Origin: an uncultured Gammaproteobacteria bacterium
GTDB taxonomy: Bacteria; Patescibacteriota; Patescibacteriia; UBA9570
DNA: 32,942 nucleotides
NCBI GenBank assembly: GCA_964474735.1
Contig: CAYYTZ010000001.1
Coordinates: forward strand, 1-32,942
Direction of reading: 5' to 3'
A model generated the notes under the pieces. That model worked only from the letters and a program-made list of their open reading frames with translations, was not told the DNA's origin and did no database searches. This document shows, piece by piece, positions 15,581 to 25,238 of this stretch. The position numbers were made by a program, and so were the translations under genes. Each line of letters opens with the position of its first letter. Position 1 is the first letter of the stretch.

Positions 15581-16546
15581 ATGAAGCTCTATAAAGACAT
15601 TCTAGTAACGGCCTGGCAAAAAACTATTCATCAGCCGTCGTTGTGGATTTTTGGTTTGTTTGCCGCATTTATTTTTGGTAATGCTGGTGAGCTCGATCGG
15701 TATCTGCGCTTTATGAACGGTATCGTCAGTGAAGGTAGCGTGATTAATCCACGGTTTTGGTTAGATCATCGCTGGGCGCAGTTTGTGGCCAGTGCATCGG
15801 AAAAAATTATTACTGGGGATATGACGGTAATCTTGTTAATGGTTGGATTGGCTGCTACTTTTATTTGGATCTTGATTATGATGAGTATTTCGGCCGGCGC
15901 ACTTATCAAGGCGGCCACATTACCAAATGTACGTTTTGTTGATGCGTTTGCCGCCGGAGCAAAACATTGGGTGGCACTATTAGTATTATTCGCTTCCGGA
16001 TATGGTGTGGTTATTTTAACTACTGTGATAATTGGTGGATTAATCTCTAAACTTAACGTTTCGGCTGAAACAGTCCAGCAAACTTTCATTTTGGTGGGTA
16101 GTATTTTATTTGTGCCATTGGTGATTGTAATTTCATTTTTAATTCGGTTTACCGCCCAAGGTATTGTGTTGAAAAATTTGCATATTTGGCCGGCAGTTTG
16201 TAACGCCGCAAAAATGTTAAAACAAGCATGGTTGGTTACCTTAGAGATGGCGATTGTTAATTTTTCAGTTGTCTTCATAATCAATTTATTTCTGTTGGTA
16301 GCCGTTGGATTATTATTTGCTCCGCAGTTTGCTACGGCATTGGGTTTGGAAACCGCCACGTCATTAGATCGGTTTTATTCAGTAGTTGTGGTGAGTGGTT
16401 TAGTATATGCTGTGTTGGTTGTTTTCGTTGGAGCAATTCTTTCCACTTGGCAATGGATAGCTTGGACATTATTGTTTGAACGGCTTCAAACTGAACAGCC
16501 AGCTAGCACATTGTTACGTTGGTTGCATTATCGCCGCAGTAAGTAA
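15581..16546 (+). CDS. Polytopic membrane protein of unknown function
   Basis: The 321-aa ORF has at least 6 hydrophobic helices and is co-oriented with rpsA and ftsH. Confidence 0.6.
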   Translation: MKLYKDILVTAWQKTIHQPSLWIFGLFAAFIFGNAGELDRYLRFMNGIVSEGSVINPRFWLDHRWAQFVASASEKIITGDMTVILLMVGLAATFIWILIMMSISAGALIKAATLPNVRFVDAFAAGAKHWVALLVLFASGYGVVILTTVIIGGLISKLNVSAETVQQTFILVGSILFVPLVIVISFLIRFTAQGIVLKNLHIWPAVCNAAKMLKQAWLVTLEMAIVNFSVVFIINLFLLVAVGLLFAPQFATALGLETATSLDRFYSVVVVSGLVYAVLVVFVGAILSTWQWIAWTLLFERLQTEQPASTLLRWLHYRRSK

Positions 16547-16551
16547 TGTAA

Positions 16552-16624
16552 GCTCCTATAGCTCAGCGGTCAGAGCACAGCCCTTATAAGGCTGGGGTCG
16601 ATGGTTCAAATCCATCTGGGAGCA
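16552..16624 (+). tRNA. tRNA-Ile, anticodon TAT (UAU); no encoded CCA
   Basis: The cloverleaf reads GCTCCTA/TA/GCTC-AGCGGTCA-GAGC/A/CAGCC-CTTATAA-GGCTG/GGGTC/GATGG-TTCAAAT-CCATC/TGGGAGC/A. Confidence 0.85.
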
Positions 16625-16652
16625 CCGGTTCTTTTGCACTTTTGCAAGTTTA

Positions 16653-16779: not shown

Positions 16780-17727
16780 ATGAACATAGTCGCTATTTTA
16801 CTCACTATTGCCGGGCTGGTCCTGTTTGAGGTGATCAGTAGTATTGATAACGCCATTATTAACGCCGAAGTGCTTTCGACCATGGGTAAAAAAGCTCGCC
16901 GCTGGTTTTTAGTCTATGGATTGTTTATTGCGGTTTTTATGATTAGAGGTTTATTACCATTTTTGATTGTCTGGTTTGTTAACCCAGGCCTAGGCCCTTG
17001 GCAGGCGGTTATGGCTACTTTTAGTAGTGACCCTAAAGTAGTTGAAGCGGTAGAATTATCGGCGCCAATTTTGTTAATTGGTGGCGGAACGTTTCTGATT
17101 TTTTTGTTTTTTCATTGGTTATTTTTGGAAACGAAACATTATGGTTTAATTGGCGAAAAGTTTATTTACTCGCAGGGAATTTGGTTTTATGCAGTGGTTT
17201 CAATATTATTAGCTGCGATTGTATATTTATCTATCAAAGTAAACCCTTCCATGGCATTTGGCGCTGTGGTTGGCTCAACGGCTTTTTTCATTACCCATGG
17301 CTTCAAACAAAATGCTGAGCAAAGTGAACAAAAATTGTTGCAAAAAGGTAATATGTCAGACATCAGTAAAATTCTTTATTTGGAAATCATTGATGCAACT
17401 TTTTCAATTGACGGTGTGTTGGGGGCTTTTGCCTTTACATTATCCGTGCCATTAATTTTGGTTGGTAATGGGATTGGCGCATTTGTGGTGCGAGAATTTA
17501 CCATTGGTAATATTGAGCGCATTAAACAGTACAAGTATTTAAAAAATGGCGCTATGTATTCGATTCTCTGTTTGGGTACTGTGATGTTACTGGATAGTTT
17601 TGGTGTACATATACCAAGTTGGGTATCACCAGTCCTCACCTTCATTATTGTTGGTTACTTTTTTTTCAAGTCTCGCGCTCAGGTAGAGCCACCGCTCGGC
17701 GTAACCGGATCATCATCACAGCAGTAA
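16780..17727 (+). CDS. DUF475/TerC-family integral membrane protein
   Basis: The N-terminus FEVISSIDNAIINAEVL and the repeated TM architecture are typical of DUF475/TerC-like proteins. Confidence 0.75.
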   Translation: MNIVAILLTIAGLVLFEVISSIDNAIINAEVLSTMGKKARRWFLVYGLFIAVFMIRGLLPFLIVWFVNPGLGPWQAVMATFSSDPKVVEAVELSAPILLIGGGTFLIFLFFHWLFLETKHYGLIGEKFIYSQGIWFYAVVSILLAAIVYLSIKVNPSMAFGAVVGSTAFFITHGFKQNAEQSEQKLLQKGNMSDISKILYLEIIDATFSIDGVLGAFAFTLSVPLILVGNGIGAFVVREFTIGNIERIKQYKYLKNGAMYSILCLGTVMLLDSFGVHIPSWVSPVLTFIIVGYFFFKSRAQVEPPLGVTGSSSQQ

Positions 17728-19120
17728 TTACTGCCATATAGACGGTGAACGTTATCACCAGCTGGTTAATGATGTTTATGTCGCTTAATAGATAAAAAAA
17801 GATGGCTATAAACACTAGAGATTTTGTTCGGATGACCAAACGAATTGGTTGACCAATTTTATTTAAACTAATCGTCAGCCATAACATCATAATATATAAT
17901 ACTAAGTAACTAGCACCCCAGACTGGTTGAATCCAAGATAAAGCAATTCCAACTAGGACGGCTGCCGAAAGTCCCAAAATATACATCATTATTTTTGTCA
18001 CGGCCGCTTCTTCACTGGCAGTATTTTGATAACGGGCCAGTGGCTCAGTCAAACTAGCTGTAATTAAATAAATAACAAATAGAAACACACTTAATTTTGG
18101 ATATAATTCAACACAGGCTACACTAGTAATGATGCCAATAATGCTTATAATATTAAATTTATATGGTGTGAAATTAAAATACGTTAAAAAATTCAGCAGT
18201 GGCCTTAAAATAAATTCGCGCCGTTTATGAAATTCTAAAACGGTTTCCTTTTCCGCTTCGCTATAGTAGTTAGTAAATTGATCGTCGTTTTGGTAAACTC
18301 GGCCTTCATACAAGCGAAAGGCTTTAACTAAGCTTTCTCGAACCACAGTATAGATTTTATAAAAACCAAGCCATAATTTAATATCCACTTCAGTTTCTTT
18401 AAACTGCTTACTCATAGTATGCGTCAGTGCCTGCCAAACAGCGGCTTCAGTTTGATTAATTGGGTCAGTTATTTCCATACCTGAGCCAATTTCTATTGGT
18501 AGATGTGCATCGGATCCGCCGGTATATAAGGTTACTTCTGGATATTTATAAAAGTCCTCTGGTAGGGCATTAGCCAGATTCATGGCAGCGCGTTTTTTTG
18601 GGAAAATATATCGTACACGAAAAGTATCAAAAAACCATTTTAATCCTTTAGCGTAAGCATTACTAATTTCTGCGCCACCAATTATACGGATAGCTTCAAT
18701 GGTTTTGGCTTTACCAATTTGATATTCACAACTTGAGTTTCCGAAGGTGCTAGGGTGGGCAATGCTTCCAACTAAGTGAGGCGAATTTTTTACATAACGA
18801 GCCATGTTTAATACATCTAATTGTTTTGGCACCATCAATTTTTGATGATAAAACAAAGTAGTATCCGGTGCCATGATAATAATATCAATACCTTCACTGG
18901 TCAGAGCTTCTAAGCCGGGGAAAATGAAGGTCTTAGCGCTGGCGGGACGTTCTTCATTTAATAAACGGTAGGCTCGTTCTGGATTTTTAAAAACATGTTC
19001 TGTAATAATAACTGCAGCTAAATTCATTTCGGCGAAGCGACGCCAAATCTCGCGACAGCGACGGCGCGCACTTAAATCATTCGTTGACAGGTTCGGGTGA
19101 AAATGATAATCTACTAGCAT
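17666..19120 (-). CDS. PHP-domain phosphoesterase fused to a degenerate CDP-alcohol-phosphatidyltransferase-like membrane domain
   Basis: The PHP motifs VDYHFHPN, ITEH and GGSDAH are present. The C-terminal region of about 200 aa is visibly paralogous to ORF 23692..24306 but lacks all catalytic Asp residues. The ATG at 19120 is preferred over the GTG at 19129, which overlaps the -10 element. Confidence 0.8.
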   Translation of the reverse strand: MLVDYHFHPNLSTNDLSARRRCREIWRRFAEMNLAAVIITEHVFKNPERAYRLLNEERPASAKTFIFPGLEALTSEGIDIIIMAPDTTLFYHQKLMVPKQLDVLNMARYVKNSPHLVGSIAHPSTFGNSSCEYQIGKAKTIEAIRIIGGAEISNAYAKGLKWFFDTFRVRYIFPKKRAAMNLANALPEDFYKYPEVTLYTGGSDAHLPIEIGSGMEITDPINQTEAAVWQALTHTMSKQFKETEVDIKLWLGFYKIYTVVRESLVKAFRLYEGRVYQNDDQFTNYYSEAEKETVLEFHKRREFILRPLLNFLTYFNFTPYKFNIISIIGIITSVACVELYPKLSVFLFVIYLITASLTEPLARYQNTASEEAAVTKIMMYILGLSAAVLVGIALSWIQPVWGASYLVLYIMMLWLTISLNKIGQPIRLVIRTKSLVFIAIFFYLLSDINIINQLVITFTVYMAVITAVMMIRLRRAVALPERET

Positions 19121-19127
19121 TATTCGC

Positions 19128-19156
19128 ACTTTAGATCATTTAGTTACATCTGACAA
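19128..19156 (-). promoter_or_regulatory. Promoter for the PHP-fusion gene (leaderless)
   Basis: On the - strand, TTGTCA (19156..19151) is followed by a 17-nt spacer and TAAAGT (19133..19128). The ATG at 19120 follows 7 nt later. Confidence 0.45.
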
Positions 19157-19905
19157 TGCCATATACACAGTCTGCGTCTCAAGCCAAAAATAACAATAAA
19201 AAAAATTCTCAACACAAAATTGCCAAGGCCCGAGGAGAAATAGTTCATCCGCACGATATCAATAAACGCGGCGGATCAGTTTCGTGGCGGATTTTTCGAA
19301 TAATGTCAGAACTGGTAGATGGCTACGAGTTTCTTTCTGGCCTGGAAAAGGAAATAACTATTTTTGGCTCGGCGCGCACCAAGCCAGGTACGCGGTATTA
19401 TTTAGAGGCAGAAAAACTTGGTCGGATGTTGGCTAGCGAAGGCTATACGTTAATTACAGGTGGTGGCCCAGGCATAATGGAAGCCGCCAATAAAGGGGCT
19501 TATGAAGCTGGTGGTGAATCATTAGGTTTAAATATTCAGTTGCCGCACGAACAACGAGCTAATCCATATGTGAAAAAAGGCATTGGCTTTCATTTTTTCT
19601 TCACTCGAAAAGTTATGCTGACTTCACCATCACAGGCTTTTGTTATTTTTCCTGGTGGCTTTGGTACACTGGATGAATTTTTTGAAGTGATCACGATAAT
19701 TCAAACCGGTAAAATGCCGCGCGTACCATTAATTGTGTTTGGCAAAGAATATTGGGGCGCTTTAGATAATTTTATCCGCAATGAAGTGTTAGCTCATCAT
19801 GAATCGGTTGATCCGGAAGATTTAAAACTTTATACGATTGTTGATACGGCCGATGAGGCAATACGCATCATTCGAAAAACTAAACCGAGTGATTACCTTA
19901 AATAA
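19156..19905 (+). CDS. LOG-family protein (TIGR00730; lysine-decarboxylase-like nucleotide phosphoribohydrolase), long form
   Basis: Motifs include WRIFRI..E.V.G, FGSART, GGGPGIMEAANKGA and PGGFGTLDEFFE. Confidence 0.88.
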   Translation: MPYTQSASQAKNNNKKNSQHKIAKARGEIVHPHDINKRGGSVSWRIFRIMSELVDGYEFLSGLEKEITIFGSARTKPGTRYYLEAEKLGRMLASEGYTLITGGGPGIMEAANKGAYEAGGESLGLNIQLPHEQRANPYVKKGIGFHFFFTRKVMLTSPSQAFVIFPGGFGTLDEFFEVITIIQTGKMPRVPLIVFGKEYWGALDNFIRNEVLAHHESVDPEDLKLYTIVDTADEAIRIIRKTKPSDYLK

Positions 19906-20983: not shown

Positions 20984-21062
20984 AATTTATAAGGTTCGGT
21001 TATTTGGCAGTTATTTGTTTTTTCAATATTGGTAGGCGCTATACTTTGAGGTTAGATCAAGT

Positions 21063-21719
21063 ATGAAAGCTAAAGGAAAAGTAAAATTGCAATGGACGTC
21101 GGGTCTAGCCTATGCCGTAGGTTTATTAACCACCGATGGTAATCTTTCGCCAGATGGCAGACACATTAGCTTTACTTCAAAGGATTTAGAATTGGCCCGG
21201 AAATTGCAAAGCGGTTTAGGTATTGCCGAACATATCGGTAAAAAAGGTAATGGCGCTAACAAGTTATTAAAGAAATACTACGTTGTTCAGTTTAGTGATA
21301 AACTTTTTTATCAATTTTTATTACAACTAGGCTTAATGCCAAATAAAACAAAAAAAATGCGTCAGCTGGCTATTCCGGACAAATATTTTTTCCATTTTTT
21401 ACGTGGGCACTTTGACGGGGACGGCAGTACGTATTCATATTATGATAAACGTTGGCCAGATAGTTACATGGTATATACAACATTTTGTTCAGCCAGCCAA
21501 CCCCATATACTATGGCTAAAACATGTAATTGAGCAAAAACTAGGTATAACTGGACATATTACAAAAAGCCAAGGTAATAGTTGTTATCAATTGAAATATG
21601 CAAAAACTGAGTCGTTACTGCTCGTAGCTAAACTGTATAAAACCAAGACGGTATTATATTTAACGCGTAAGTACTTGAAAATTCAAAGAGCATTCGCTAT
21701 ACTTGGCAAGCGTATTTAG
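21063..21719 (+). CDS. LAGLIDADG-family homing endonuclease (double-motif, free-standing)
   Basis: There are two LAGLIDADG-type motifs, LAYAVGLLTTDGNL and FLRGHFDGDGSTY. A GAGG SD lies 13 nt upstream and a GCTATACT -10 lies at 21038-21045. Confidence 0.85.
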   Translation: MKAKGKVKLQWTSGLAYAVGLLTTDGNLSPDGRHISFTSKDLELARKLQSGLGIAEHIGKKGNGANKLLKKYYVVQFSDKLFYQFLLQLGLMPNKTKKMRQLAIPDKYFFHFLRGHFDGDGSTYSYYDKRWPDSYMVYTTFCSASQPHILWLKHVIEQKLGITGHITKSQGNSCYQLKYAKTESLLLVAKLYKTKTVLYLTRKYLKIQRAFAILGKRI

Positions 21720-21737
21720 CAGATTGCTGTGTTTTAA

Positions 21738-21827
21738 GCGCGGGTGGAGAAATTGGTAAACTCGCAGGCTTGAGGTGCCTGTGCCAGTAAAAATGGCTTG
21801 GAGGTTCAAGTCCTCTTCCGCGCACCA
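21738..21827 (+). tRNA. tRNA-Leu, anticodon GAG (class II, long variable arm); CCA encoded
   Basis: The acceptor is GCGCGGG/TCCGCGC, the anticodon loop is TTGAGGT, the variable arm is GCCA-gtaaaaa-TGGC and the T loop is TTCAAGT. The 3' end is ACCA. Confidence 0.88.
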
Positions 21828-21918
21828 GAAGTAAGAAGTAATTGGAGAGTATTCCAATACAGTTTAAAATCATACAGTCTTGGTGCGCCTAACAGGCTAG
21901 CCTAATTATTGCTAGTAC

Positions 21919-21926
21919 GCTATACT
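21919..21926 (+). promoter_or_regulatory. -10 element (GCTATACT) upstream of the unit of tRNA-Val, small ORF and tRNA-Ala
   Basis: GCTATACT ends 13 nt before the tRNA-Val 5' end. The weak -35 candidate TAGCCT lies 17 nt upstream. Confidence 0.4.
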
Positions 21927-21939
21927 ATTTTCACTTTAA

Positions 21940-22015
21940 GGACGATTAGCTCAGTTGGTAGAGCGCCTCGTTTACACCGAGGATGTCGAGGGTTCGAGCC
22001 CCCCATCGTCCACCA
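21940..22015 (+). tRNA. tRNA-Val, anticodon TAC; CCA encoded
   Basis: The cloverleaf reads GGACGAT/TA/GCTC-AGTTGGTA-GAGC/G/CCTCG-TTTACAC-CGAGG/ATGTC/GAGGG-TTCGAGC-CCCCC/ATCGTCC/ACCA. The T stem has one A-C mismatch. Confidence 0.85.
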
Positions 22016-22017
22016 TT

Positions 22018-22254
22018 ATGTTGATGCGAGTATTAGTTGGTTTGGGAATAATTGCTTTTGGGGTTTTTTTAATTGTAAAAACCGAGTGGATGATTTCTGC
22101 CTTTGGCCGCATTGCTTGGGCCGAAGATAAACTTGGTGCCGAAGGTGGTACGCGGGTGTTCTATAAATTACTGGGCATGACTTCCATTGTCTTGGCATTT
22201 ATGATTATGTCTGGTAAGATATTCACGCTACTGGATTGGATATTTAAACGTTAG
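22018..22254 (+). CDS. Small (78 aa) two-helix membrane protein wedged between two tRNAs
   Basis: The ATG lies 2 nt after the tRNA-Val CCA, and the TAG stop shares its G with tRNA-Ala position 1. The protein has two hydrophobic helices flanking the loop AWAEDKLGAEGGTRVFYKL. The ORF-track start at 21955 lies inside the tRNA and is rejected. Confidence 0.55.
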   Translation: MLMRVLVGLGIIAFGVFLIVKTEWMISAFGRIAWAEDKLGAEGGTRVFYKLLGMTSIVLAFMIMSGKIFTLLDWIFKR

Positions 22255-22329
22255 GGCCCTTAGCTCATTTGGTAGAGCGCCTCGTTTGCACCGAGGAGGT
22301 GGGGAGTTCGAGCCTCCCAGGGTCCACCA
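22254..22329 (+). tRNA. tRNA-Ala, anticodon TGC; CCA encoded
   Basis: The acceptor GGGCCCT/AGGGTCC carries the G3:U70 alanine identity pair. The anticodon loop is TTTGCAC. Confidence 0.9.
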
Positions 22330-22338
22330 CCACACAAC

Positions 22339-22367
22339 TTGTAACCATGCAAATTTTGTGCTAGACT
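22339..22367 (+). promoter_or_regulatory. Promoter for the AAA+ ATPase gene (leaderless)
   Basis: TTGTAA (22339-44) is followed by a 17-nt spacer and TAGACT (22362-67). The ATG at 22374 follows 6 nt later. Confidence 0.45.
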
Positions 22368-22384
22368 TGAAATATGCATGGTTA
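22342..22384. repeat. Perfect 10-bp inverted repeat bracketing the promoter and start codon
   Basis: TAACCATGCA (22342-51) is the reverse complement of TGCATGGTTA (22375-84). The left arm overlaps the -35 and the right arm overlaps the ATG. Confidence 0.7.
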
Positions 22385-23546
22385 TGTTTCTCGAGCCATT
22401 GAACACAATATTAAAGGGGATCTTAAACAGTTCCCAGCTGTTGCTATATTAGGGCCTCGGCAATGCGGGAAATCGACTACCGCCCAAGAGATTGGGAAAC
22501 GGTACTCTAATTTTATCTATTTAGACTTAGAACGTCCATCTGATCAGCGTAAGTTGCGTGATCCGGAGTTATTTTTTAATAGTAATCAAGCGGCCTTAAT
22601 TTGTTTGGACGAGATTCAGCGTGTACCCAATATCTTTCCAGTGTTACGCAGTATCATTGATCAGAATAAGCGGCCAGGCCAATTTTTAATTCTTGGCTCG
22701 GCATCACGCGATTTATTAAAACAATCATCAGAAACTTTAGCTGGGCGGATTGCCTATAATGAATTAACGCCGTTTGTTTATAGTGAAATTTCAGCAGATC
22801 CAAAGATGAGTATCCAGCAATATTGGTTACGTGGTGGTTTTCCAAATAGCTTGTTAACGGACAGTAATACTAACAGCGCCCGGTGGCGTGAAAATTTTAT
22901 TCGTACCTATTTAGAACGTGACATTCCTCAAATGGGATTTAATATTACAGCAGAATCATTGCGCCGTTTATGGACAATGTGTGCTCATTATCATGGTCAG
23001 ATGTTAAACGCATCAGAGCTAGCTAATGCGCTCAATATATCGAGTACCACAGTGCGGTCTCATCTAGATATCCTTGAGCAAACCTTTACAGTGCGGTTAC
23101 TCAAGCCCTATATCAATAATACAAAAAAACGTTTGGTTAAATCCCCTAAGCTTTATATCCGTGATAGCGGACTGGTTCATGAACTATTGGAAGTAAGAGA
23201 TATAAACAATCTTTTAGCTCATCCTCGAGTCGGAGCATCTTGGGAGGGGTTGGTCTTAGAGAATATTATTACAACTTTACCGCAGTGGCGACCATCATTT
23301 TATCGTACAACGAATGGTGCCGAAATTGATCTAGTCCTTGAACGTGGACAAACTAGTTTAGCTTTTGAATTTAAGGCAGCTTCGAATCCAGATATAACGC
23401 GTGGTTTTTATAGCGCCATTGAAGATATTGGTATTGAACAGGCTTGGGTAGTTGTCCCAACAGGAGATGCCTCTCCAGTCAATAAACAGATCACAATTAG
23501 TAATTTGCAGGATTGTTTAGTGATACTGGCTCAACGATATTTGTAA
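22374..23546 (+). CDS. AAA+ ATPase with a C-terminal DUF4143-type domain
   Basis: Walker A is GPRQCGKST and Walker B is LICLDEIQ. The layout is typical of the AAA_14 plus DUF4143 family (YLERDI motif). Confidence 0.82.
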   Translation: MHGYVSRAIEHNIKGDLKQFPAVAILGPRQCGKSTTAQEIGKRYSNFIYLDLERPSDQRKLRDPELFFNSNQAALICLDEIQRVPNIFPVLRSIIDQNKRPGQFLILGSASRDLLKQSSETLAGRIAYNELTPFVYSEISADPKMSIQQYWLRGGFPNSLLTDSNTNSARWRENFIRTYLERDIPQMGFNITAESLRRLWTMCAHYHGQMLNASELANALNISSTTVRSHLDILEQTFTVRLLKPYINNTKKRLVKSPKLYIRDSGLVHELLEVRDINNLLAHPRVGASWEGLVLENIITTLPQWRPSFYRTTNGAEIDLVLERGQTSLAFEFKAASNPDITRGFYSAIEDIGIEQAWVVVPTGDASPVNKQITISNLQDCLVILAQRYL

Positions 23547-23600
23547 CGACCATAATATATACCGTTTCTTCAACTCCTCCATAATAAGGTTCCAACTGAT

Positions 23601-23614
23601 CCTCTTAGGGTCCA
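23601..23614 (+). repeat. Degenerate copy of the tRNA-Ala 3' end
   Basis: CCTCttAGGGTCCA here compares with CCTCccAGGGTCCA at 22313-22326, a 12/14 match. Confidence 0.3.
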
Positions 23615-23644
23615 TCGCTAGTCTATCTTTTTATGGTTTTGATA

Positions 23645-23653
23645 TGTTAAACT
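23645..23653 (+). promoter_or_regulatory. Possible extended -10 (TGtTAAACT) for the lipid gene pair
   Basis: It lies 38 nt upstream of the ATG at 23692. A GGAG SD lies 10 nt before the ATG, and the GATAGT/ACTATC/GATAGT repeats at 23656-23679 lie in between. Confidence 0.35.
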
Positions 23654-23691
23654 AAGATAGTTGATTTACTATCGATAGTGGAGTTTGGTAT

Positions 23692-24306
23692 ATGGACGAT
23701 AATAATTTATTAGATTTTTTTAGTGAGAAAGAAAGAGCTGCGCATACCAAATGGCGGAAACAGCGCACAACTTTTTTTAGCGGTATTTTAAAAATACTTA
23801 GCCGACTGGGTGTCTCAGCCAACAGTCTTTCTGTTGTAGGAATTTTGGCTGTGCTTTTATTCCCTTTTCTTGTTTCGAGACATCCATACTGGGCTATTTT
23901 TGTAGTTATTTGCCATTTATTCTTTGATGCCTTAGATGGCCCAATGGCCAGGTTTCAAAATAAACTTAATAAATTTGGATCGCTGTTGGATATTATCGCG
24001 GACCATACTGCTATGGTAATGGTGGTGGTTGGTCTGCTGGTATTAAAACTAGTGAATCCAATTGAGGCCGTTATATATGTCTACGTTTATATCATCCTGA
24101 TTGTTTTGATTATCGTGCGTAATATTGTAGGAAAATCACCTGGATTGATCATTAGGACAAAATATATTCTTTATATTAGTTATGTTGTTTTCGTGTTAAC
24201 GAATTGGCAAATTTATTCGATCCTGCTGCCGCTTTTTATTATCTTATCTATCATTCCGCTTGTTTCGTCATTAGTGGTTTTATCCAAATACTTTGCACAT
24301 GACTAA
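23692..24306 (+). CDS. CDP-alcohol phosphatidyltransferase family protein
   Basis: The signature D-x2-DG-x2-AR-x8-G-x3-D-x3-D is complete, as DALDGPMARFQNKLNKFGSLLDIIAD (nt 23926-24003). The protein has multiple TM helices. Confidence 0.85.
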   Translation: MDDNNLLDFFSEKERAAHTKWRKQRTTFFSGILKILSRLGVSANSLSVVGILAVLLFPFLVSRHPYWAIFVVICHLFFDALDGPMARFQNKLNKFGSLLDIIADHTAMVMVVVGLLVLKLVNPIEAVIYVYVYIILIVLIIVRNIVGKSPGLIIRTKYILYISYVVFVLTNWQIYSILLPLFIILSIIPLVSSLVVLSKYFAHD

Positions 24307-24823
24307 TCTTCTGCTGCAAACATTTTTATTTCTGTTACCGGCCGGAATGGCAAATATGGCCCCAGTGGTTTTCCGTTTTATCCCTTGGGGAAATCAACCG
24401 ATCGATTTTGGATACATGTTTCATGGAAGAAGAATGATTGGAAGCCAAAAAACCATTCGTGGTTTTGTTTCGGGGTCGATTATGGCAGTTACTGGCGTTT
24501 ATTTTATACGGTATTTATGGCCGGCTGCACTTTTAGAGCCAGCCATCCAAACACCCATATTATGGGGATTGGCGTTAGGTTTTGGTGCACTGACCGGAGA
24601 TGCCGTGAAAAGCTTTTTTAAACGACAAAGGGAGATTGCTTCAGGAAAATCGTGGCCACCATTTGATCAAATTGACTGGATATTTGGAGCGCTATTTTTT
24701 ACATTCCCATTTGGCGTAGTAACCTGGCCGTTGGCACTAACAGCATTACTGCTCTTTGGGCCATTGCATCCATTAATAAATATTATCGGGCGGTTGATAG
24801 GTCTAAAAAAGAATTGGTTATAG
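24293..24823 (+). CDS. CarS-like (DUF46/PF01864, CDP-archaeol-synthase family) membrane cytidylyltransferase
   Basis: LLPAGMANMAPVV...PIDFG...GRRMIGSQKTIRGF...GALTGDAVKSFFKRQ...PPFDQIDWIFGALFF matches the conserved blocks of archaeal CarS as I recall them. The gene overlaps the upstream gene by 14 nt. Confidence 0.72.
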   Translation: MHMTNLLLQTFLFLLPAGMANMAPVVFRFIPWGNQPIDFGYMFHGRRMIGSQKTIRGFVSGSIMAVTGVYFIRYLWPAALLEPAIQTPILWGLALGFGALTGDAVKSFFKRQREIASGKSWPPFDQIDWIFGALFFTFPFGVVTWPLALTALLLFGPLHPLINIIGRLIGLKKNWL

Positions 24824-25046
24824 GTCCAGGCGCATTATTACCTTTTACAGCTATAAAAAAAACGATGGCAAAATCCTTTTACTTGGCGTTGGACGTTTAG
24901 ACATTTTCCATTTCAACTTGATTATATTTTATTGCCGGAAGATTGCGCCATTGAAAGAAAGAAAATATTTAGGAAATCATTTGGCAGCGATCATCATCCC
25001 ATCATGGTAGAAATTTAGAGGCTTAAAATTTTTTTTATATTTGCTA

Positions 25047-25076
25047 TTGACATGTAAAATGACATCATCGTATACT
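25047..25076 (+). promoter_or_regulatory. Strong promoter for the Lys-rich microprotein
   Basis: TTGACA (25047-52) is followed by an 18-nt spacer and TATACT (25071-76). A GGAGGTGA SD lies at about 25118-25125. Confidence 0.6.
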
Positions 25077-25130
25077 ATAGGTACGTACAATCTCTCATTT
25101 AAAAAAATTTTACGAGAGGAGGTGAGAAAA

Positions 25131-25238
25131 ATGGCAAAGAAAAAAAAGGTTACCAAAAAAACTGCTAAGAAAAAAACAACGAAGCGTAAGGCTACGAAAA
25201 AGAAAACTGCAAAAAGAAAAACCAAGAAGCGTCGTTAG
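25131..25238 (+). CDS. 35-aa Lys/Arg/Thr-rich basic microprotein (histone-H1-tail-like composition)
   Basis: The protein is MAKKKKVTKKTAKKKTTKRKATKKKTAKRKTKKRR. It has the best SD in the window, its own promoter and its own terminator. The ORF-track start at 25041 precedes the SD and is rejected. Confidence 0.55.
   Translation: MAKKKKVTKKTAKKKTTKRKATKKKTAKRKTKKRR

What the first reader, a model, noticed from the sequence alone, without database searches (positions are those of the whole stretch)
17666..19120. PHP phosphoesterase fused to a catalytically dead paralogue of the nearby CDP-alcohol phosphatidyltransferase
Seen in sequence: the N-terminal part of about 225 aa (nt about 18455-19120) carries the PHP metal-binding motifs VDYHFHPN, ITEH and GGSDAH. 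The C-terminal part of about 200 aa (nt 17669-18268) is polytopic. It aligns by eye, block by block, with ORF 23692..24306:
- YYSEAEKE with FFSEKERA
- HKRREF with RKQRTTF
- EPLARYQN with GPMARFQN
- RLVIRTKSLVFIAIFFYLL with GLIIRTKYILYISYVVFVL
The transferase signature DALDGPMARFQNKLNKFGSLLDIIAD is replaced here by ASLTEPLARYQNTASEEAAVTKIMMY (nt 17981-18058). All four catalytic Asp residues and the Gly are lost, while the AR pair is kept.
Inference: this is a pseudo-transferase membrane module. It could retain lipid or dimer-interface function, since CDP-alcohol transferases are known dimers, and so tether a soluble phosphomonoesterase to the membrane. With the CarS-like gene and the active transferase at 23692-24823 it would complete a three-step route: CDP-activation of the lipid, transfer to a phosphorylated alcohol, then removal of the head-group phosphate. 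That last step is PGP- or PIP-phosphatase-like. I know of no characterised PHP-family lipid head-group phosphatase or PHP/pseudo-CAPT fusion.
Basis: partly seen in the sequence, partly recalled or inferred. Interest (0 to 1): 0.78.

Follow-up and report, generated by a model that had tools for sequence, protein, structure and literature searches.

The report
PHP phosphoesterase fused to dead lipid transferase
This gene from a tiny uncultured bacterium joins an apparently intact metal-dependent phosphoesterase to a membrane domain that descends from a phospholipid head-group transferase but has lost all four catalytic aspartates; in related genomes its unfused relatives sit directly beside working copies of that transferase and a CDP-lipid synthase, so it is a good candidate for a missing head-group phosphatase of phospholipid synthesis.

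Summary
ORF 17666-19129 (-) encodes an N-terminal PHP-fold domain and a C-terminal 6-TM domain.

- **PHP domain.** The HxH, EH, E, HP and GSDAH motifs are invariant in 39 family members. The best structural match is the RNase AM PHP domain.
- **C-terminal domain.** It is homologous to a subfamily of about 200-aa CDP-alcohol phosphatidyltransferases (CAPTs) that includes ORF 23692 (hhalign prob 99.3-100, E 1.5e-47; Foldseek hits PIP and PGP synthases). All four signature Asp are replaced in every orthologue examined. The domain is still under strong purifying selection (dN/dS 0.02-0.06).
- **New evidence for a shared pathway.** Unfused homologues of this PHP domain directly abut CAPT and/or CarS-like genes in 7 of 15 well-flanked loci from CPR bacteria, a DPANN archaeon and others. 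PHP-CAPT fusions with an intact signature also exist, next to CarS-like genes.

PHP, CAPT and CarS therefore look like one pathway. The head-group phosphatase role fits best but is inferred, not shown.

- The dead domain is not a recent copy of ORF 23692. Its nearest catalytic relatives are operon-linked CAPTs.
- The AR pair is not conserved across the family.
- Within this clade only the window has CAPT/CarS nearby.

I found no literature describing this arrangement.

The parts
17666..19129 (-). Whole ORF, 487 aa from GTG. The probable true start is the ATG at 19120, giving 484 aa. It encodes the PHP-pseudoCAPT fusion protein.
   Evidence: There are 27 full-length orthologues at 46-76% identity with the same architecture, all starting at MLVDYHFHPN.
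18380..19120 (-). PHP-fold phosphoesterase domain (residues 4-250). Motifs: D7-Y-H9-x-H11-P-N13, E44-H45, E74, D82, H125-P126, E154, G205-S-D207-A-H209.
   Evidence: AF2 domain model has pLDDT 92.6. Foldseek hits RNase AM PHP 7ug9 at E 9e-6, then 3o0f, 9etk and the Pol III PHP. The motif residues are invariant in 39 family members. Pfam PHP_C matches 25 of 27 orthologues, but the window protein is below the cut-off.
18179..18379 (-). C-terminal helix of the PHP domain plus the junction/juxtamembrane segment (residues 251-317). It contains KAFRLYEGxxYQNDDxFTNYYSEAEKE and is the most conserved part of the protein.
   Evidence: 70-96% identity between orthologues and dN/dS 0.045. The NYYSEAEKE part aligns with the N-terminal FFSEKER/NYFSEKEKE of catalytic subfamily members. 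AF2 confidence is low for residues 273-298.
17687..18178 (-). Six-helix membrane core of the pseudo-CAPT domain (residues 318-481).
   Evidence: hhalign prob 100, E 1.5e-47 against the catalytic subfamily. Foldseek hits 5d92, 7drj and 6h53 at prob 1.00 with TM 0.55-0.59 per target. dN/dS is 0.024-0.061.
17981..18058 (-). Degenerate CAPT signature ASLTEPLARYQNTASEEAAVTKIMMY, in place of D1xxD2GxxAR(x8)GxxxD3xxxD4.
   Evidence: all four Asp are replaced in all 11 pseudo-fusion sequences tabulated, and in all 27. D3 becomes K (N in one). D4 becomes Y, Q or H.
17822..17830 (-). Retained basic motif R434-T435-K436 at the TM4-TM5 junction. R434 is invariant.
   Evidence: It aligns with the RxxR motif of R. 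salmoninarum PIP synthase, which holds the acceptor-phosphate ligand R153. The register is uncertain by 1-3 residues.
23692..24306 (+). Catalytic CAPT of the same subfamily, with all eight signature residues intact.
   Evidence: PF01066 at E 9.8e-15. Its best NCBIfam models are AIP synthase and PIP synthase, both below cut-off. It is the first member of alignment A4.
24293..24823 (+). CarS-like CDP-lipid synthase gene. It overlaps the CAPT gene by 14 nt.
   Evidence: PF01864 at E 1.5e-28. NF003114 at 8.7e-37 (126.6 bits, below its 148-bit cut-off).

Best explanation
**Shown.**
- The gene encodes a two-domain inner-membrane protein.
- The N-terminal domain is cytoplasmic, has the PHP fold and keeps an intact metal-site signature.
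- The C-terminal 6-TM domain descends from a CDP-alcohol phosphatidyltransferase (CAPT) but has lost all four catalytic Asp. It is still kept under strong purifying selection.
- The PHP family it belongs to is repeatedly encoded in operons with, or fused to, catalytic CAPTs of the same subfamily and CarS-like CDP-lipid synthases. This holds in CPR bacteria, a DPANN archaeon and a few other lineages.

**Inferred mechanism.**
1. The CarS-like enzyme activates a (probably scavenged) lipid phosphate with CTP.
2. The catalytic CAPT (ORF 23692 in this genome) transfers the phosphatidyl group to a phosphorylated alcohol. The closest characterised relatives use inositol-1-phosphate; glycerol-3-phosphate is also possible.
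3. The PHP domain removes the terminal head-group phosphate. This is the role that PgpA/B/C or the PgpA-like PIP phosphatase play elsewhere.

**Inferred history and role of the dead domain.** The ancestor was an adjacent PHP->CAPT gene pair that became fused. In the Kerfeldbacteria-like clade the fused CAPT lost catalysis. It now serves to hold the PHP active site at the cytoplasmic membrane face. It probably still binds the lipid or its phosphorylated head group, or pairs with the catalytic CAPT, since CAPTs are dimers.
For: **Architecture and homology**
- establish the architecture and the CAPT homology.
- The profile search of 1.84e9 proteins with the pseudo-domain returned about 200-aa CAPTs at whole-library E down to 1e-33. 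All 26 that I aligned carry the full signature.

**Dead signature under selection**
-.

**PHP site intact**
- D7, Y8, H9, H11, P12, N13, E44, H45, K48, E74, H125, P126, E154 and G205-S-D207-A are invariant in 39 of 39 family members. H209 is present in 38 of 39.
- These map onto RNase AM ligands H13/H15, H45, E72, H198 and D255/H257.

**Linkage with CAPT and CarS**
- Operons or abutting genes occur in L019, L020, L022, L024 (an Undinarchaeales archaeon), L026, L028, L038 and L040.
- 7 of 15 standalone PHP loci with at least 2 kb on both flanks directly abut CAPT/CarS.
- The linked PHPs are scattered over the whole PHP tree.
- Fusions with an intact signature, P0186-P0188, converge on a CarS-like gene in three contigs. 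P0038 is a further one.
- All three nearest catalytic relatives of the dead domain that could be looked up sit in PHP/CAPT/CarS operons: P0037, P0039 and P0040.

**A phosphorylated acceptor is likely**
- All 26 subfamily members match the AIP-synthase and PIP-synthase models best.
- A basic R-S/T-K motif aligns with the RxxR acceptor motif of PIP synthase and is retained in the dead domain.

**The gap in knowledge is real**
- The PIP phosphatase is called 'as-yet-unidentified' in PMC4634129.
- The archaeal one is called unidentified in PMC9385802.
Against: - No biochemical data exist for any member of this PHP family.
- The PHP domain is very divergent. It is below the Pfam cut-offs in the window protein, and hhalign against E. 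coli RNase AM gives prob 0.8.
- Its nearest solved relatives act on nucleotides or RNA, not lipids.
- Two of the nine canonical ligands, D20 and H83 of RNase AM, have only putative substitutes (N13 or D18, and D82).
- About half of the unfused PHP homologues have no lipid gene nearby. Examples are P0032 and P0034.
- From the CarS side, only 2 of 80 metagenomic CarS-like loci carry this PHP.
- In the pseudo-fusion clade the gene sits in a conserved FtsH / LOG / RluD / L19 neighbourhood with no CAPT/CarS within 10 kb, except in this window.
- No inositol-phosphate synthase or G3P gene was seen near any triad, so the head group is unknown.
Confidence: 0.55

Rival explanations
1. Head-group salvage by a phosphodiesterase. 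The PHP domain cleaves the phosphodiester of host-derived phospholipids (phospholipase D/C-like) to give phosphatidic acid or an equivalent. The CarS-like enzyme and the catalytic CAPT then re-activate and re-decorate it. The dead CAPT domain binds the phospholipid and presents it.
For: - PHP enzymes include phosphodiesterases. The nearest solved relative, RNase AM, is one.
- The same gene linkage fits a PHP->CarS->CAPT order equally well.
- CPR and DPANN organisms are thought to depend on host lipids (own knowledge).
- The retained head-group pocket residues in the dead domain would suit binding of a finished phospholipid.
Against: - The CAPT subfamily resembles synthases that use phosphorylated acceptors. 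Those create a direct need for a monoesterase.
- I found no precedent for a PHP phospholipase in the literature.
Confidence: 0.15
2. The PHP domain acts on a soluble substrate of the same pathway. One option is that it dephosphorylates an alcohol phosphate to supply a free-alcohol acceptor. Another is that it removes the CMP product (or a related nucleotide) to pull the reversible CAPT reaction forward. The dead CAPT domain merely docks it to the catalytic CAPT.
For: - The best structural neighbours are nucleotide-directed TrpH-type PHP enzymes: 7ug9, 9etk, 2yb1 and 3o0f.
- Histidinol-phosphate phosphatases are PHP enzymes acting on small phospho-alcohols (own knowledge).
- The fusion and operon linkage is compatible with substrate channelling in either direction.
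Against: - A soluble-substrate enzyme would have little need for a 6-TM domain kept at dN/dS 0.02-0.06 with conserved polar pocket residues.
- In the pseudo-fusion, its own CAPT domain makes no CMP.
- R201 of RNase AM, which binds the 5' phosphate, has no counterpart here.
Confidence: 0.12
3. The C-terminal domain is only a membrane anchor. The protein has a function unrelated to CAPT/CarS chemistry, for example an RNase AM-like nuclease or phosphatase at the membrane, or a role tied to its conserved FtsH / LOG / RluD neighbours.
For: - In the clade that carries the dead domain, the conserved neighbours are FtsH, a 320-aa membrane protein, LOG, RluD and L19, not lipid genes.
- Several unfused PHP homologues have no lipid neighbours.
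Against: - A pure anchor would not keep subfamily-specific polar motifs (SEAEKE, NKxGxP, R-S/T-K, the basic C-terminus) or such a low dN/dS.
- The PHP family's linkage to CAPT/CarS is ancestral and recurrent.
- The synteny within one narrow clade can be mere inheritance.
Confidence: 0.08
4. The C-terminal domain is still catalytic through a re-wired site that uses the family-specific invariant E371, E373 and K379 and the acidic junction (D282, D283, E291, E293, E295). It would carry out a different transfer or hydrolysis on a lipid.
For: - New invariant acidic residues flank the former metal site (ESEAG). The junction is the best conserved segment.
Against: - All four Asp that bind the metal and act as base in every characterised CAPT are gone (PMC4634129).
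- The Arg of the AR pair is replaced in 7 of 27 orthologues.
- No precedent is known.
Confidence: 0.04

Closest known systems
Bifunctional IPCT-DIPPS of Archaeoglobus fulgidus (PDB 4mnd) and AF2299 (4o6m)
   Same: A cytoplasmic soluble domain is fused to the N-terminus of a 6-TM CAPT domain, and the two parts belong to one pathway. Both appear among the Foldseek and PDB hits.
   Different: There both domains are active and the soluble one acts upstream, as a cytidylyltransferase. Here the soluble domain is a PHP phosphoesterase and the CAPT domain has lost D1-D4.
Prokaryotic PIP/AIP synthases (RsPIPS 5d92, MtPgsA1 6h53) followed by a PIP phosphatase (PgpA-like BT_1525 in Bacteroides, PMC9246714)
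   Same: These are the closest characterised relatives of the CAPT subfamily. The pathway has two steps, a synthase and then a head-group phosphatase. In Bacteroides the phosphatase is clustered with the synthase gene.
   Different: The phosphatase candidate here has a PHP fold, unrelated to PgpA, PgpB (PAP2) or PgpC (HAD). The head group is unknown. The CDP-lipid synthase is CarS-like rather than CdsA.
TrpH-type PHP enzymes: RNase AM (7ug9, 9etk), Cv1693 (2yb1), BAD_1165 (3o0f)
   Same: They share the (beta/alpha)7 PHP barrel and are the best structural matches. The HxH, H, E, HP and DxH ligands are shared.
   Different: There is no detectable profile-sequence similarity (hhalign prob 0.8). 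The insertion domain and R201 are absent. D20 and H83 are replaced. The family signature DYHxHPN...EH..K is distinct. This domain ends in a C-terminal hydrophobic helix or a membrane domain.
PHP-CAPT fusions with an intact signature (P0186-P0188, P0038), found here
   Same: They have the same domain order and are co-linear with the window protein end to end (28% identity over 487 aa, E 2e-43).
   Different: They keep D1-D4 and lie next to CarS-like genes. The window's clade is the derived, catalytically dead version and has moved away from CarS.

Membership tests
PHP superfamily (PF02811 / PF13263) | [quoted passage not shown] | tested here: met
   The AF2 domain model has pLDDT 92.6 and pTM 0.90. 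The top Foldseek hits are all PHP domains: 7ug9 at E 9e-6 and TM 0.58 per target, then 3o0f, 9etk and 4jom.
PHP superfamily (PF02811 / PF13263) | Conserved metal-ligand motifs: HxH, H (motif 2), E, H (HP), DxH | tested here: met
   H9, H11, H45, E74, H125 and D207 are invariant in 39 of 39 family members. H209 is present in 38 of 39.
PHP superfamily (PF02811 / PF13263) | Full nine-ligand trinuclear site (RNase AM H13, H15, D20, H45, E72, H83, H198, D255, H257) | tested here: inconclusive
   Seven ligands have invariant counterparts. H83 may be replaced by D/E82 (39 of 39), and D20 by N13 (39 of 39) or D18 (variable).
PHP superfamily (PF02811 / PF13263) | Score above Pfam's gathering cut-off | tested here: not met
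   Window protein: PHP_C 20.5 bits against a cut-off of 21.3; PHP 14.8 bits against 26.4. PHP_C matches 25 of 27 orthologues at E<=0.01, best 1.1e-6.
CDP-alcohol phosphatidyltransferase, class I (PF01066) | Six-TM fold with homology to bona fide members | tested here: met
   hhalign prob 100, E 1.5e-47 against 26 catalytic members. Foldseek hits 5d92, 7drj and 6h53 at prob 1.00. Controls score 11-24 against 129 for the real pair.
CDP-alcohol phosphatidyltransferase, class I (PF01066) | Signature D1xxD2GxxAR...GxxxD3xxxD4 (eight absolutely conserved residues) | tested here: not met
   None of the four Asp is present in any pseudo-fusion sequence examined (27, 11 tabulated). G and R are variable. 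The domain is therefore a homologue but not a catalytic member, that is, a pseudoenzyme.
CDP-alcohol phosphatidyltransferase, class I (PF01066) | Detection by the Pfam model | tested here: not met
   There is no hit for the window protein even at E<=1. Weak hits occur in 5 of 27 orthologues, best E 0.002. hmmsearch of the family profile against PDB finds nothing.
Known PGP/PIP phosphatases (PgpA PF04608, PgpB/PAP2, PgpC/HAD) | Sequence homology to one of these families | tested here: not met
   No such Pfam or NCBIfam hit. If this protein is a head-group phosphatase, it is an analogue and not a member.
Known PGP/PIP phosphatases (PgpA PF04608, PgpB/PAP2, PgpC/HAD) | Hydrolysis of the terminal phosphate of PGP or PIP | not testable with these tools
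   This needs an enzyme assay or genetic complementation.
RNase AM / TrpH (COG0613) | Sequence-level family membership, insertion domain, R201 phosphate clamp | tested here: not met
   hhalign of A3 against E. coli RNase AM gives prob 0.8, and only the AHP region aligns. There is no Arg at the R201-equivalent position and no insertion domain.

The most novel reading that the evidence does not exclude
This divergent PHP family is the missing head-group phosphatase (archaetidyl-/phosphatidyl-inositol-phosphate or -glycerol-phosphate phosphatase) of DPANN archaea and CPR bacteria. It would form a minimal three-gene head-group installation module, CarS-CAPT-PHP, that lets lipid-scavenging symbionts re-decorate host lipids. 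In the Kerfeldbacteria-like clade the fused CAPT would have become a pseudoenzyme that presents the lipid substrate to the PHP site or pairs with the catalytic CAPT as a heterodimer.
Probability: 0.4. Interest if true: 0.78.

Novelty: new variant of a known kind. Interest (0 to 1): 0.64.

Why it matters
**A candidate for a missing enzyme.**
- The phosphatase that finishes PI/AI synthesis, and AG synthesis in archaea, after the CDP-alcohol transferase step is still unidentified in archaea and was long unidentified in bacteria (PMC4634129, PMC9385802). The one bacterial case solved is PgpA-like (PMC9246714).
- A PHP-fold enzyme linked genetically, and sometimes physically, to the synthase would be a non-homologous solution to this step. 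It gives a directly testable candidate.

**Relevance to ultra-small symbionts.** CPR and DPANN organisms lack de novo lipid synthesis, so it matters which lipid genes they keep. A compact CarS-CAPT-PHP module would explain how they install their own head groups on scavenged lipids.

**A clean pseudoenzyme case.** The dead CAPT domain is a membrane pseudoenzyme with a traceable history: an operon, then an active fusion, then a dead fusion.

**Annotation.** Standard pipelines call this protein hypothetical and miss the CAPT homology.

Tried and rejected
**Searches that found nothing useful**
- Direct Pfam and NCBIfam scans of the protein do not detect the CAPT domain.
- hmmsearch of the C-domain profile against PDB sequences found nothing. 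The link had to go through the catalytic subfamily.
- hhalign of the PHP profile against E. coli RNase AM failed (prob 0.8). Ligand mapping therefore rests on motif order plus the ligand list in PMC9410882, not on a residue-level alignment.
- The PDB sequence hit to PsfC (E 0.068) led nowhere.
- The search for homologous proteins with ORF 23692 returned only the query itself.

**Co-occurrence in the pseudo-fusion clade**
- The CarS-based scan returned 80 loci, none on a contig known to carry a pseudo-fusion.
- Whole-genome co-occurrence of the dead fusion with a catalytic CAPT therefore remains untested.

**Inconclusive or uninformative tests**
- I tested whether the C-terminal helix of the PHP domain is a membrane-binding amphipathic helix. 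The result was inconclusive: hydrophobic moment 0.53 against a 95% shuffle limit of 0.50 for the window, and lower for the others.
- The promoter and terminator scan was uninformative: 10 sites against 7.0 expected, and no terminators.

**Ideas considered and rejected**
- Assembly or frameshift artefact: rejected, because 27 independent full-length orthologues exist and the window contains no Ns.
- 'Recent duplicate of ORF 23692': rejected, because the dead domain groups with P0037/P0039/P0040/P0038-type CAPTs.
- Neighbours of the triads were scanned for inositol-phosphate synthase or G3P genes to identify the head group. None was found.


Full report
**What is there**

The ORF on the minus strand at 17666-19129 is 487 aa from a GTG. 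All 27 full-length orthologues, and the deposited 484-aa protein (MAG 'hypothetical protein ACD_43C00224G0002'), begin at the ATG at 19120 with MLVDYHFHPN. This includes the 26-residue stretch at nt 17981-18058.

The family is narrow. Orthologues are 46-76% identical. All come from Kerfeldbacteria-like or Patescibacteria MAGs, and nine are GTDB species representatives. In a library of 1.84e9 representative proteins the family collapses to two 50%-identity clusters.

**N-terminal half: a divergent but intact-looking PHP domain**

- Pfam hits are below the cut-offs for the window protein: PHP_C 20.5 bits against 21.3, and PHP 14.8 bits against 26.4. PHP_C does match 25 of 27 orthologues.
- An AlphaFold2 model of residues 1-261 is confident (pLDDT 92.6, pTM 0.90).
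- Its best PDB matches are all PHP domains of the TrpH type: RNase AM 7ug9 (E 9e-6, TM 0.58 per target), BAD_1165 3o0f, V. cholerae RNase AM, the Pol III PHP and Cv1693. The full-length model gave the same result.
- Profile-sequence comparison with E. coli RNase AM fails (hhalign prob 0.8), so this is a new and remote subfamily.
- Across 39 members, fused and unfused, the following are invariant: D7, Y8, H9, H11, P12, N13, E44, H45, K48, E74, H125, P126, E154, G205, S206, D207 and A208. H209 is present in 38 of 39, and position 82 is always D or E.
- The RNase AM ligands are H13(/H15), D20, H45, E72, H83, H198, D255 and H257 (PMC9410882). Against that list, seven of nine have invariant counterparts. 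H83 may be replaced by D82, and D20 by N13. I could not check the geometry.
- The signature is identical in the window protein and in the unfused or actively fused relatives, so nothing suggests that the PHP domain is dead.

**C-terminal half: a CAPT homologue with a dead signature**

- BLASTP against ORF 23692 gives 22% identity over 176 ungapped residues, E 4e-11.
- The 25-sequence family profile against ORF 23692 gives hhalign prob 99.3, E 4.6e-20.
- Against a 26-member alignment of catalytic subfamily members it gives prob 100, E 1.5e-47 over 211 columns.
- Controls: seven other polytopic proteins of this window score 11-18. Forty shuffles of ORF 23692 score at most 24.1. The reversed sequence scores 16.7. 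The real pair scores 129.3.
- The catalytic subfamily hits solved CAPTs: AF2299 at 1.8e-12, M. tuberculosis PIP synthase at 1.5e-11 and R. salmoninarum PIP synthase at 4.6e-10.
- Foldseek of the full model hits PIP synthase 5d92 and PGP synthase 7drj at prob 1.00, with TM 0.55-0.59 per target.
- The profile search of 1.84e9 proteins returned 396 hits. Almost all are about 200-aa proteins. The 26 I aligned all keep D79, D82, G83, R87, G96, D100 and D104.
- In contrast, every pseudo-fusion sequence lacks all four Asp. D1 becomes S, G, N or A. D2 becomes T, A or V. D3 becomes K (N once). D4 becomes Y, Q or H.
The Arg is replaced in 7 of 27 orthologues, counting the two with LERY.

**The dead domain is not decaying**

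- Between the closest pairs, dN/dS is 0.024 (L017/L018) and 0.061 (L010/L011). The PHP domain gives 0.089 and 0.054 for the same pairs.
- Subfamily-specific polar motifs survive: NYYSEAEKE in the juxtamembrane helix, Y408/Y412, NKxGxP, R434-S/T-K, and a basic residue near the C-terminus.
- The R-S/T-K motif aligns with the RxxR motif of PIP synthase, give or take a few residues. That motif contains R153, one of the two Arg that bind the acceptor's phosphate.
- The best conserved segment of the whole protein is the junction, residues 251-300 (70-96% identity, dN/dS 0.045). AF2 models part of it with low confidence.

**Evidence that PHP, CAPT and CarS belong together**

1. *Fusions with an intact signature exist.* P0038 is a fragment carrying DGLDGALARYQQRSSDRGALLDIVVDQ. 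P0186, P0187 and P0188 are 481-482 aa. P0187 is co-linear with the window protein from end to end (28% identity, E 2e-43). In three contigs these genes converge on, and overlap, a CarS-like gene. That gene is followed by GT4 and phosphoribosyltransferase genes, and in L008 by an amidohydrolase.
2. *Unfused PHP homologues sit beside the other two genes.* A scan of GTDB species genomes with the family alignment found unfused homologues of the PHP domain in other CPR lineages, DPANN archaea and a Planctomycetaceae MAG. My HMM searches of their ORFs show CAPT and/or CarS-like genes directly abutting the PHP gene in eight loci:
   - L019: PHP->CAPT<-CarS, followed by the same amidohydrolase/GT4/PRTase set as L008.
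   - L022 and L024 (an Undinarchaeales archaeon): CAPT->PHP->CarS.
   - L020, L026, L028, L038 and L040.
   - That is 7 of 15 loci with at least 2 kb on both flanks.
3. *The linkage looks ancestral.* The linked PHPs are scattered across the whole PHP tree, so the linkage predates the family's radiation.
4. *The nearest catalytic relatives are operon-linked.* All three that I could look up are in such operons:
   - P0037: PHP->CAPT->CarS, with overlapping genes.
   - P0040: PHP->CAPT->CarS.
   - P0039: CAPT->CAPT->CarS->PHP.

In the first two arrangements a single frameshift or stop loss would create the fusion.

**Limits of that evidence**

- About half of the unfused PHP genes have no lipid neighbours.
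- Only 2 of 80 metagenomic CarS-like loci carry this PHP, while about 40 carry a CAPT. Many of those loci are probably ordinary archaeal CarS genes.
- Inside the pseudo-fusion clade the gene lies in a conserved neighbourhood with no CAPT/CarS within 10 kb. The order is S1 / FtsH / 320-aa membrane protein / fusion, then divergently LOG / RluD / L19.
- The window is the exception. Its CAPT-CarS pair lies 4.5 kb away, in a segment that also holds a LAGLIDADG ORF, three tRNAs and a DUF4143 ATPase. That segment is absent from the syntenic locus L003.
- I could not establish whether other genomes with the dead fusion keep a catalytic CAPT.

**Evolutionary reading**

- The dead domain groups with the 'R-S-K' type CAPTs P0037, P0185, P0039, P0040 and the active fusion P0038 (24-29% identity). 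It does not group with ORF 23692 (21%).
- It is therefore a paralogue of ORF 23692 within one subfamily, but not a recent copy of it.
- The most economical history has three steps: an adjacent PHP->CAPT pair, then an active fusion, then loss of catalysis in the Kerfeldbacteria-like clade. A separate catalytic CAPT-CarS pair is present in at least this genome.
- Two CAPT paralogues side by side also occur in L125 and L038.

**Mechanism: inference, not shown**

- All 26 subfamily CAPTs match the archaetidylinositol-phosphate synthase and PIP synthase models best, though below their cut-offs. Both of those enzymes use a phosphorylated alcohol and leave a product that needs a phosphatase.
- That phosphatase is described as unidentified for PIP in prokaryotes generally (PMC4634129, 2015) and for archaea (PMC9385802, 2022). 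It is PgpA-like in Bacteroides (PMC9246714).
- A PHP phosphomonoesterase sitting at the cytoplasmic face is the simplest reading. It would be joined to the N-terminal juxtamembrane helix of a CAPT fold, whose cavity opens to the same side.
- The alternatives cannot be excluded: a phosphodiesterase for head-group salvage, a soluble-substrate phosphatase or nucleotidase, or an unrelated function.
- No inositol-phosphate synthase or G3P gene was found near any triad, so the head group is open.

**Novelty**

Full-text searches found no paper linking a PHP domain to PGP or PIP phosphatase activity, or to a CAPT fusion. The pathway logic is known: CDP activation, transfer, then dephosphorylation. 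Three things look new:
- the candidate phosphatase family;
- its recurrent operon and fusion linkage;
- the pseudoenzyme derivative.

I rate this as a new variant of a known kind.

- Confidence in the architecture (PHP domain plus dead CAPT homologue): about 0.95.
- Confidence in a functional link to CarS/CAPT lipid head-group chemistry: about 0.8.
- Confidence in the specific head-group phosphatase role: about 0.5.

Noticed in passing
window 16552-16626: A tRNA-Ile with anticodon TAT (UAU) sits next to a tRNA-Val(GAC). Most bacteria decode AUA with a lysidine-modified CAU tRNA, so a UAU tRNA-Ile is unusual.
   Followed up: no
window 21000-24900: This segment is absent from the otherwise syntenic locus L003, where L19 is followed by three small ORFs and then the amidase. 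It contains a free-standing LAGLIDADG ORF (21063-21719), three tRNAs (Leu-GAG, Val-TAC, Ala-TGC), a DUF4143/AAA_14 ATPase and the CAPT-CarS pair. It looks like a variable or inserted region.
   Followed up: partly
window 15581-16546: A 321-aa polytopic protein with no Pfam or NCBIfam match lies immediately after ftsH. Proteins of the same size and position occur in L001 and L003.
   Followed up: no
window 19120-19156: The fusion gene and the divergent LOG-like gene (19156-19905) are only about 27-36 nt apart. The same tight divergent pair occurs in L001 and L003. A promoter-like site (TTGTCA-17-TAAAGT) ends 7 nt before the ATG at 19120 and there is no Shine-Dalgarno sequence, so the mRNA may be leaderless.
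   Followed up: partly
window 17666-17727: The 3' end of the fusion gene overlaps the 3' end of the convergent DUF475/TerC-family gene (16780-17727) by 62 nt. That TerC gene is not present at this position in L001 or L003.
   Followed up: no
window 25041-25238: A small ORF encodes an extremely Lys/Arg-rich tail (KKKKVTKKTAKKKTTKRKATKKKTAKRKTKKRR). It lies between CarS and the amidase gene.
   Followed up: no
P0043, P0081, P0095, P0132, P0149: These members of the same CAPT subfamily carry a C-terminal extension of about 300 aa after an extra TM helix, presumably extracytoplasmic. This is a different fusion partner for the same transferase module.
   Followed up: no
L125:5397-7915; L038:1070-4590: Two CAPT paralogues lie in tandem in one operon with one CarS: the 'DW...AGFFPN' type and the 'R-S-K' type in L125. 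L125 has one PHP gene, and L038 has two CAPTs and two PHP genes. This suggests heterodimers or two head groups.
   Followed up: partly
P0186-P0188 and L019:10864-11469: These CAPTs carry a one-residue insertion in the signature, giving D-x3-DG instead of D-x2-DG (for example IDGFLDGALAR). The rest of the signature is intact.
   Followed up: no
L008:5179-8681; L019:11447-14941; 508-kb JGI contig: There is a conserved cluster downstream of the PHP/CAPT genes. In L008 and L019 it comprises CarS-like, Amidohydro_2, a GT4 glycosyltransferase and a ComF-like phosphoribosyltransferase. The JGI contig has CarS-like, GT4 and the phosphoribosyltransferase without the amidohydrolase. The GT4 hints that the dephosphorylated lipid is then glycosylated, as in the PimA step of PIM synthesis.
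   Followed up: partly
L022:3753-5741: A membrane H+-pyrophosphatase gene sits directly upstream of the CAPT->PHP->CarS operon. CarS-type enzymes release PPi.
   Followed up: no
window residues 273-298 (nt 18236-18313): AF2 gives its lowest confidence (pLDDT 33-45) to part of the most conserved segment of the protein, YEGxxYQNDDxFTNYYSEAEKE. Such a mismatch may point to a surface that is ordered only at the membrane or in a complex.
   Followed up: no
L010, L013, L014, L018: Several TPA assemblies that carry clear Kerfeldbacteria-type orthologues are titled 'uncultured Gammaproteobacteria bacterium'. This looks like a placeholder or a mislabel.
   Followed up: no
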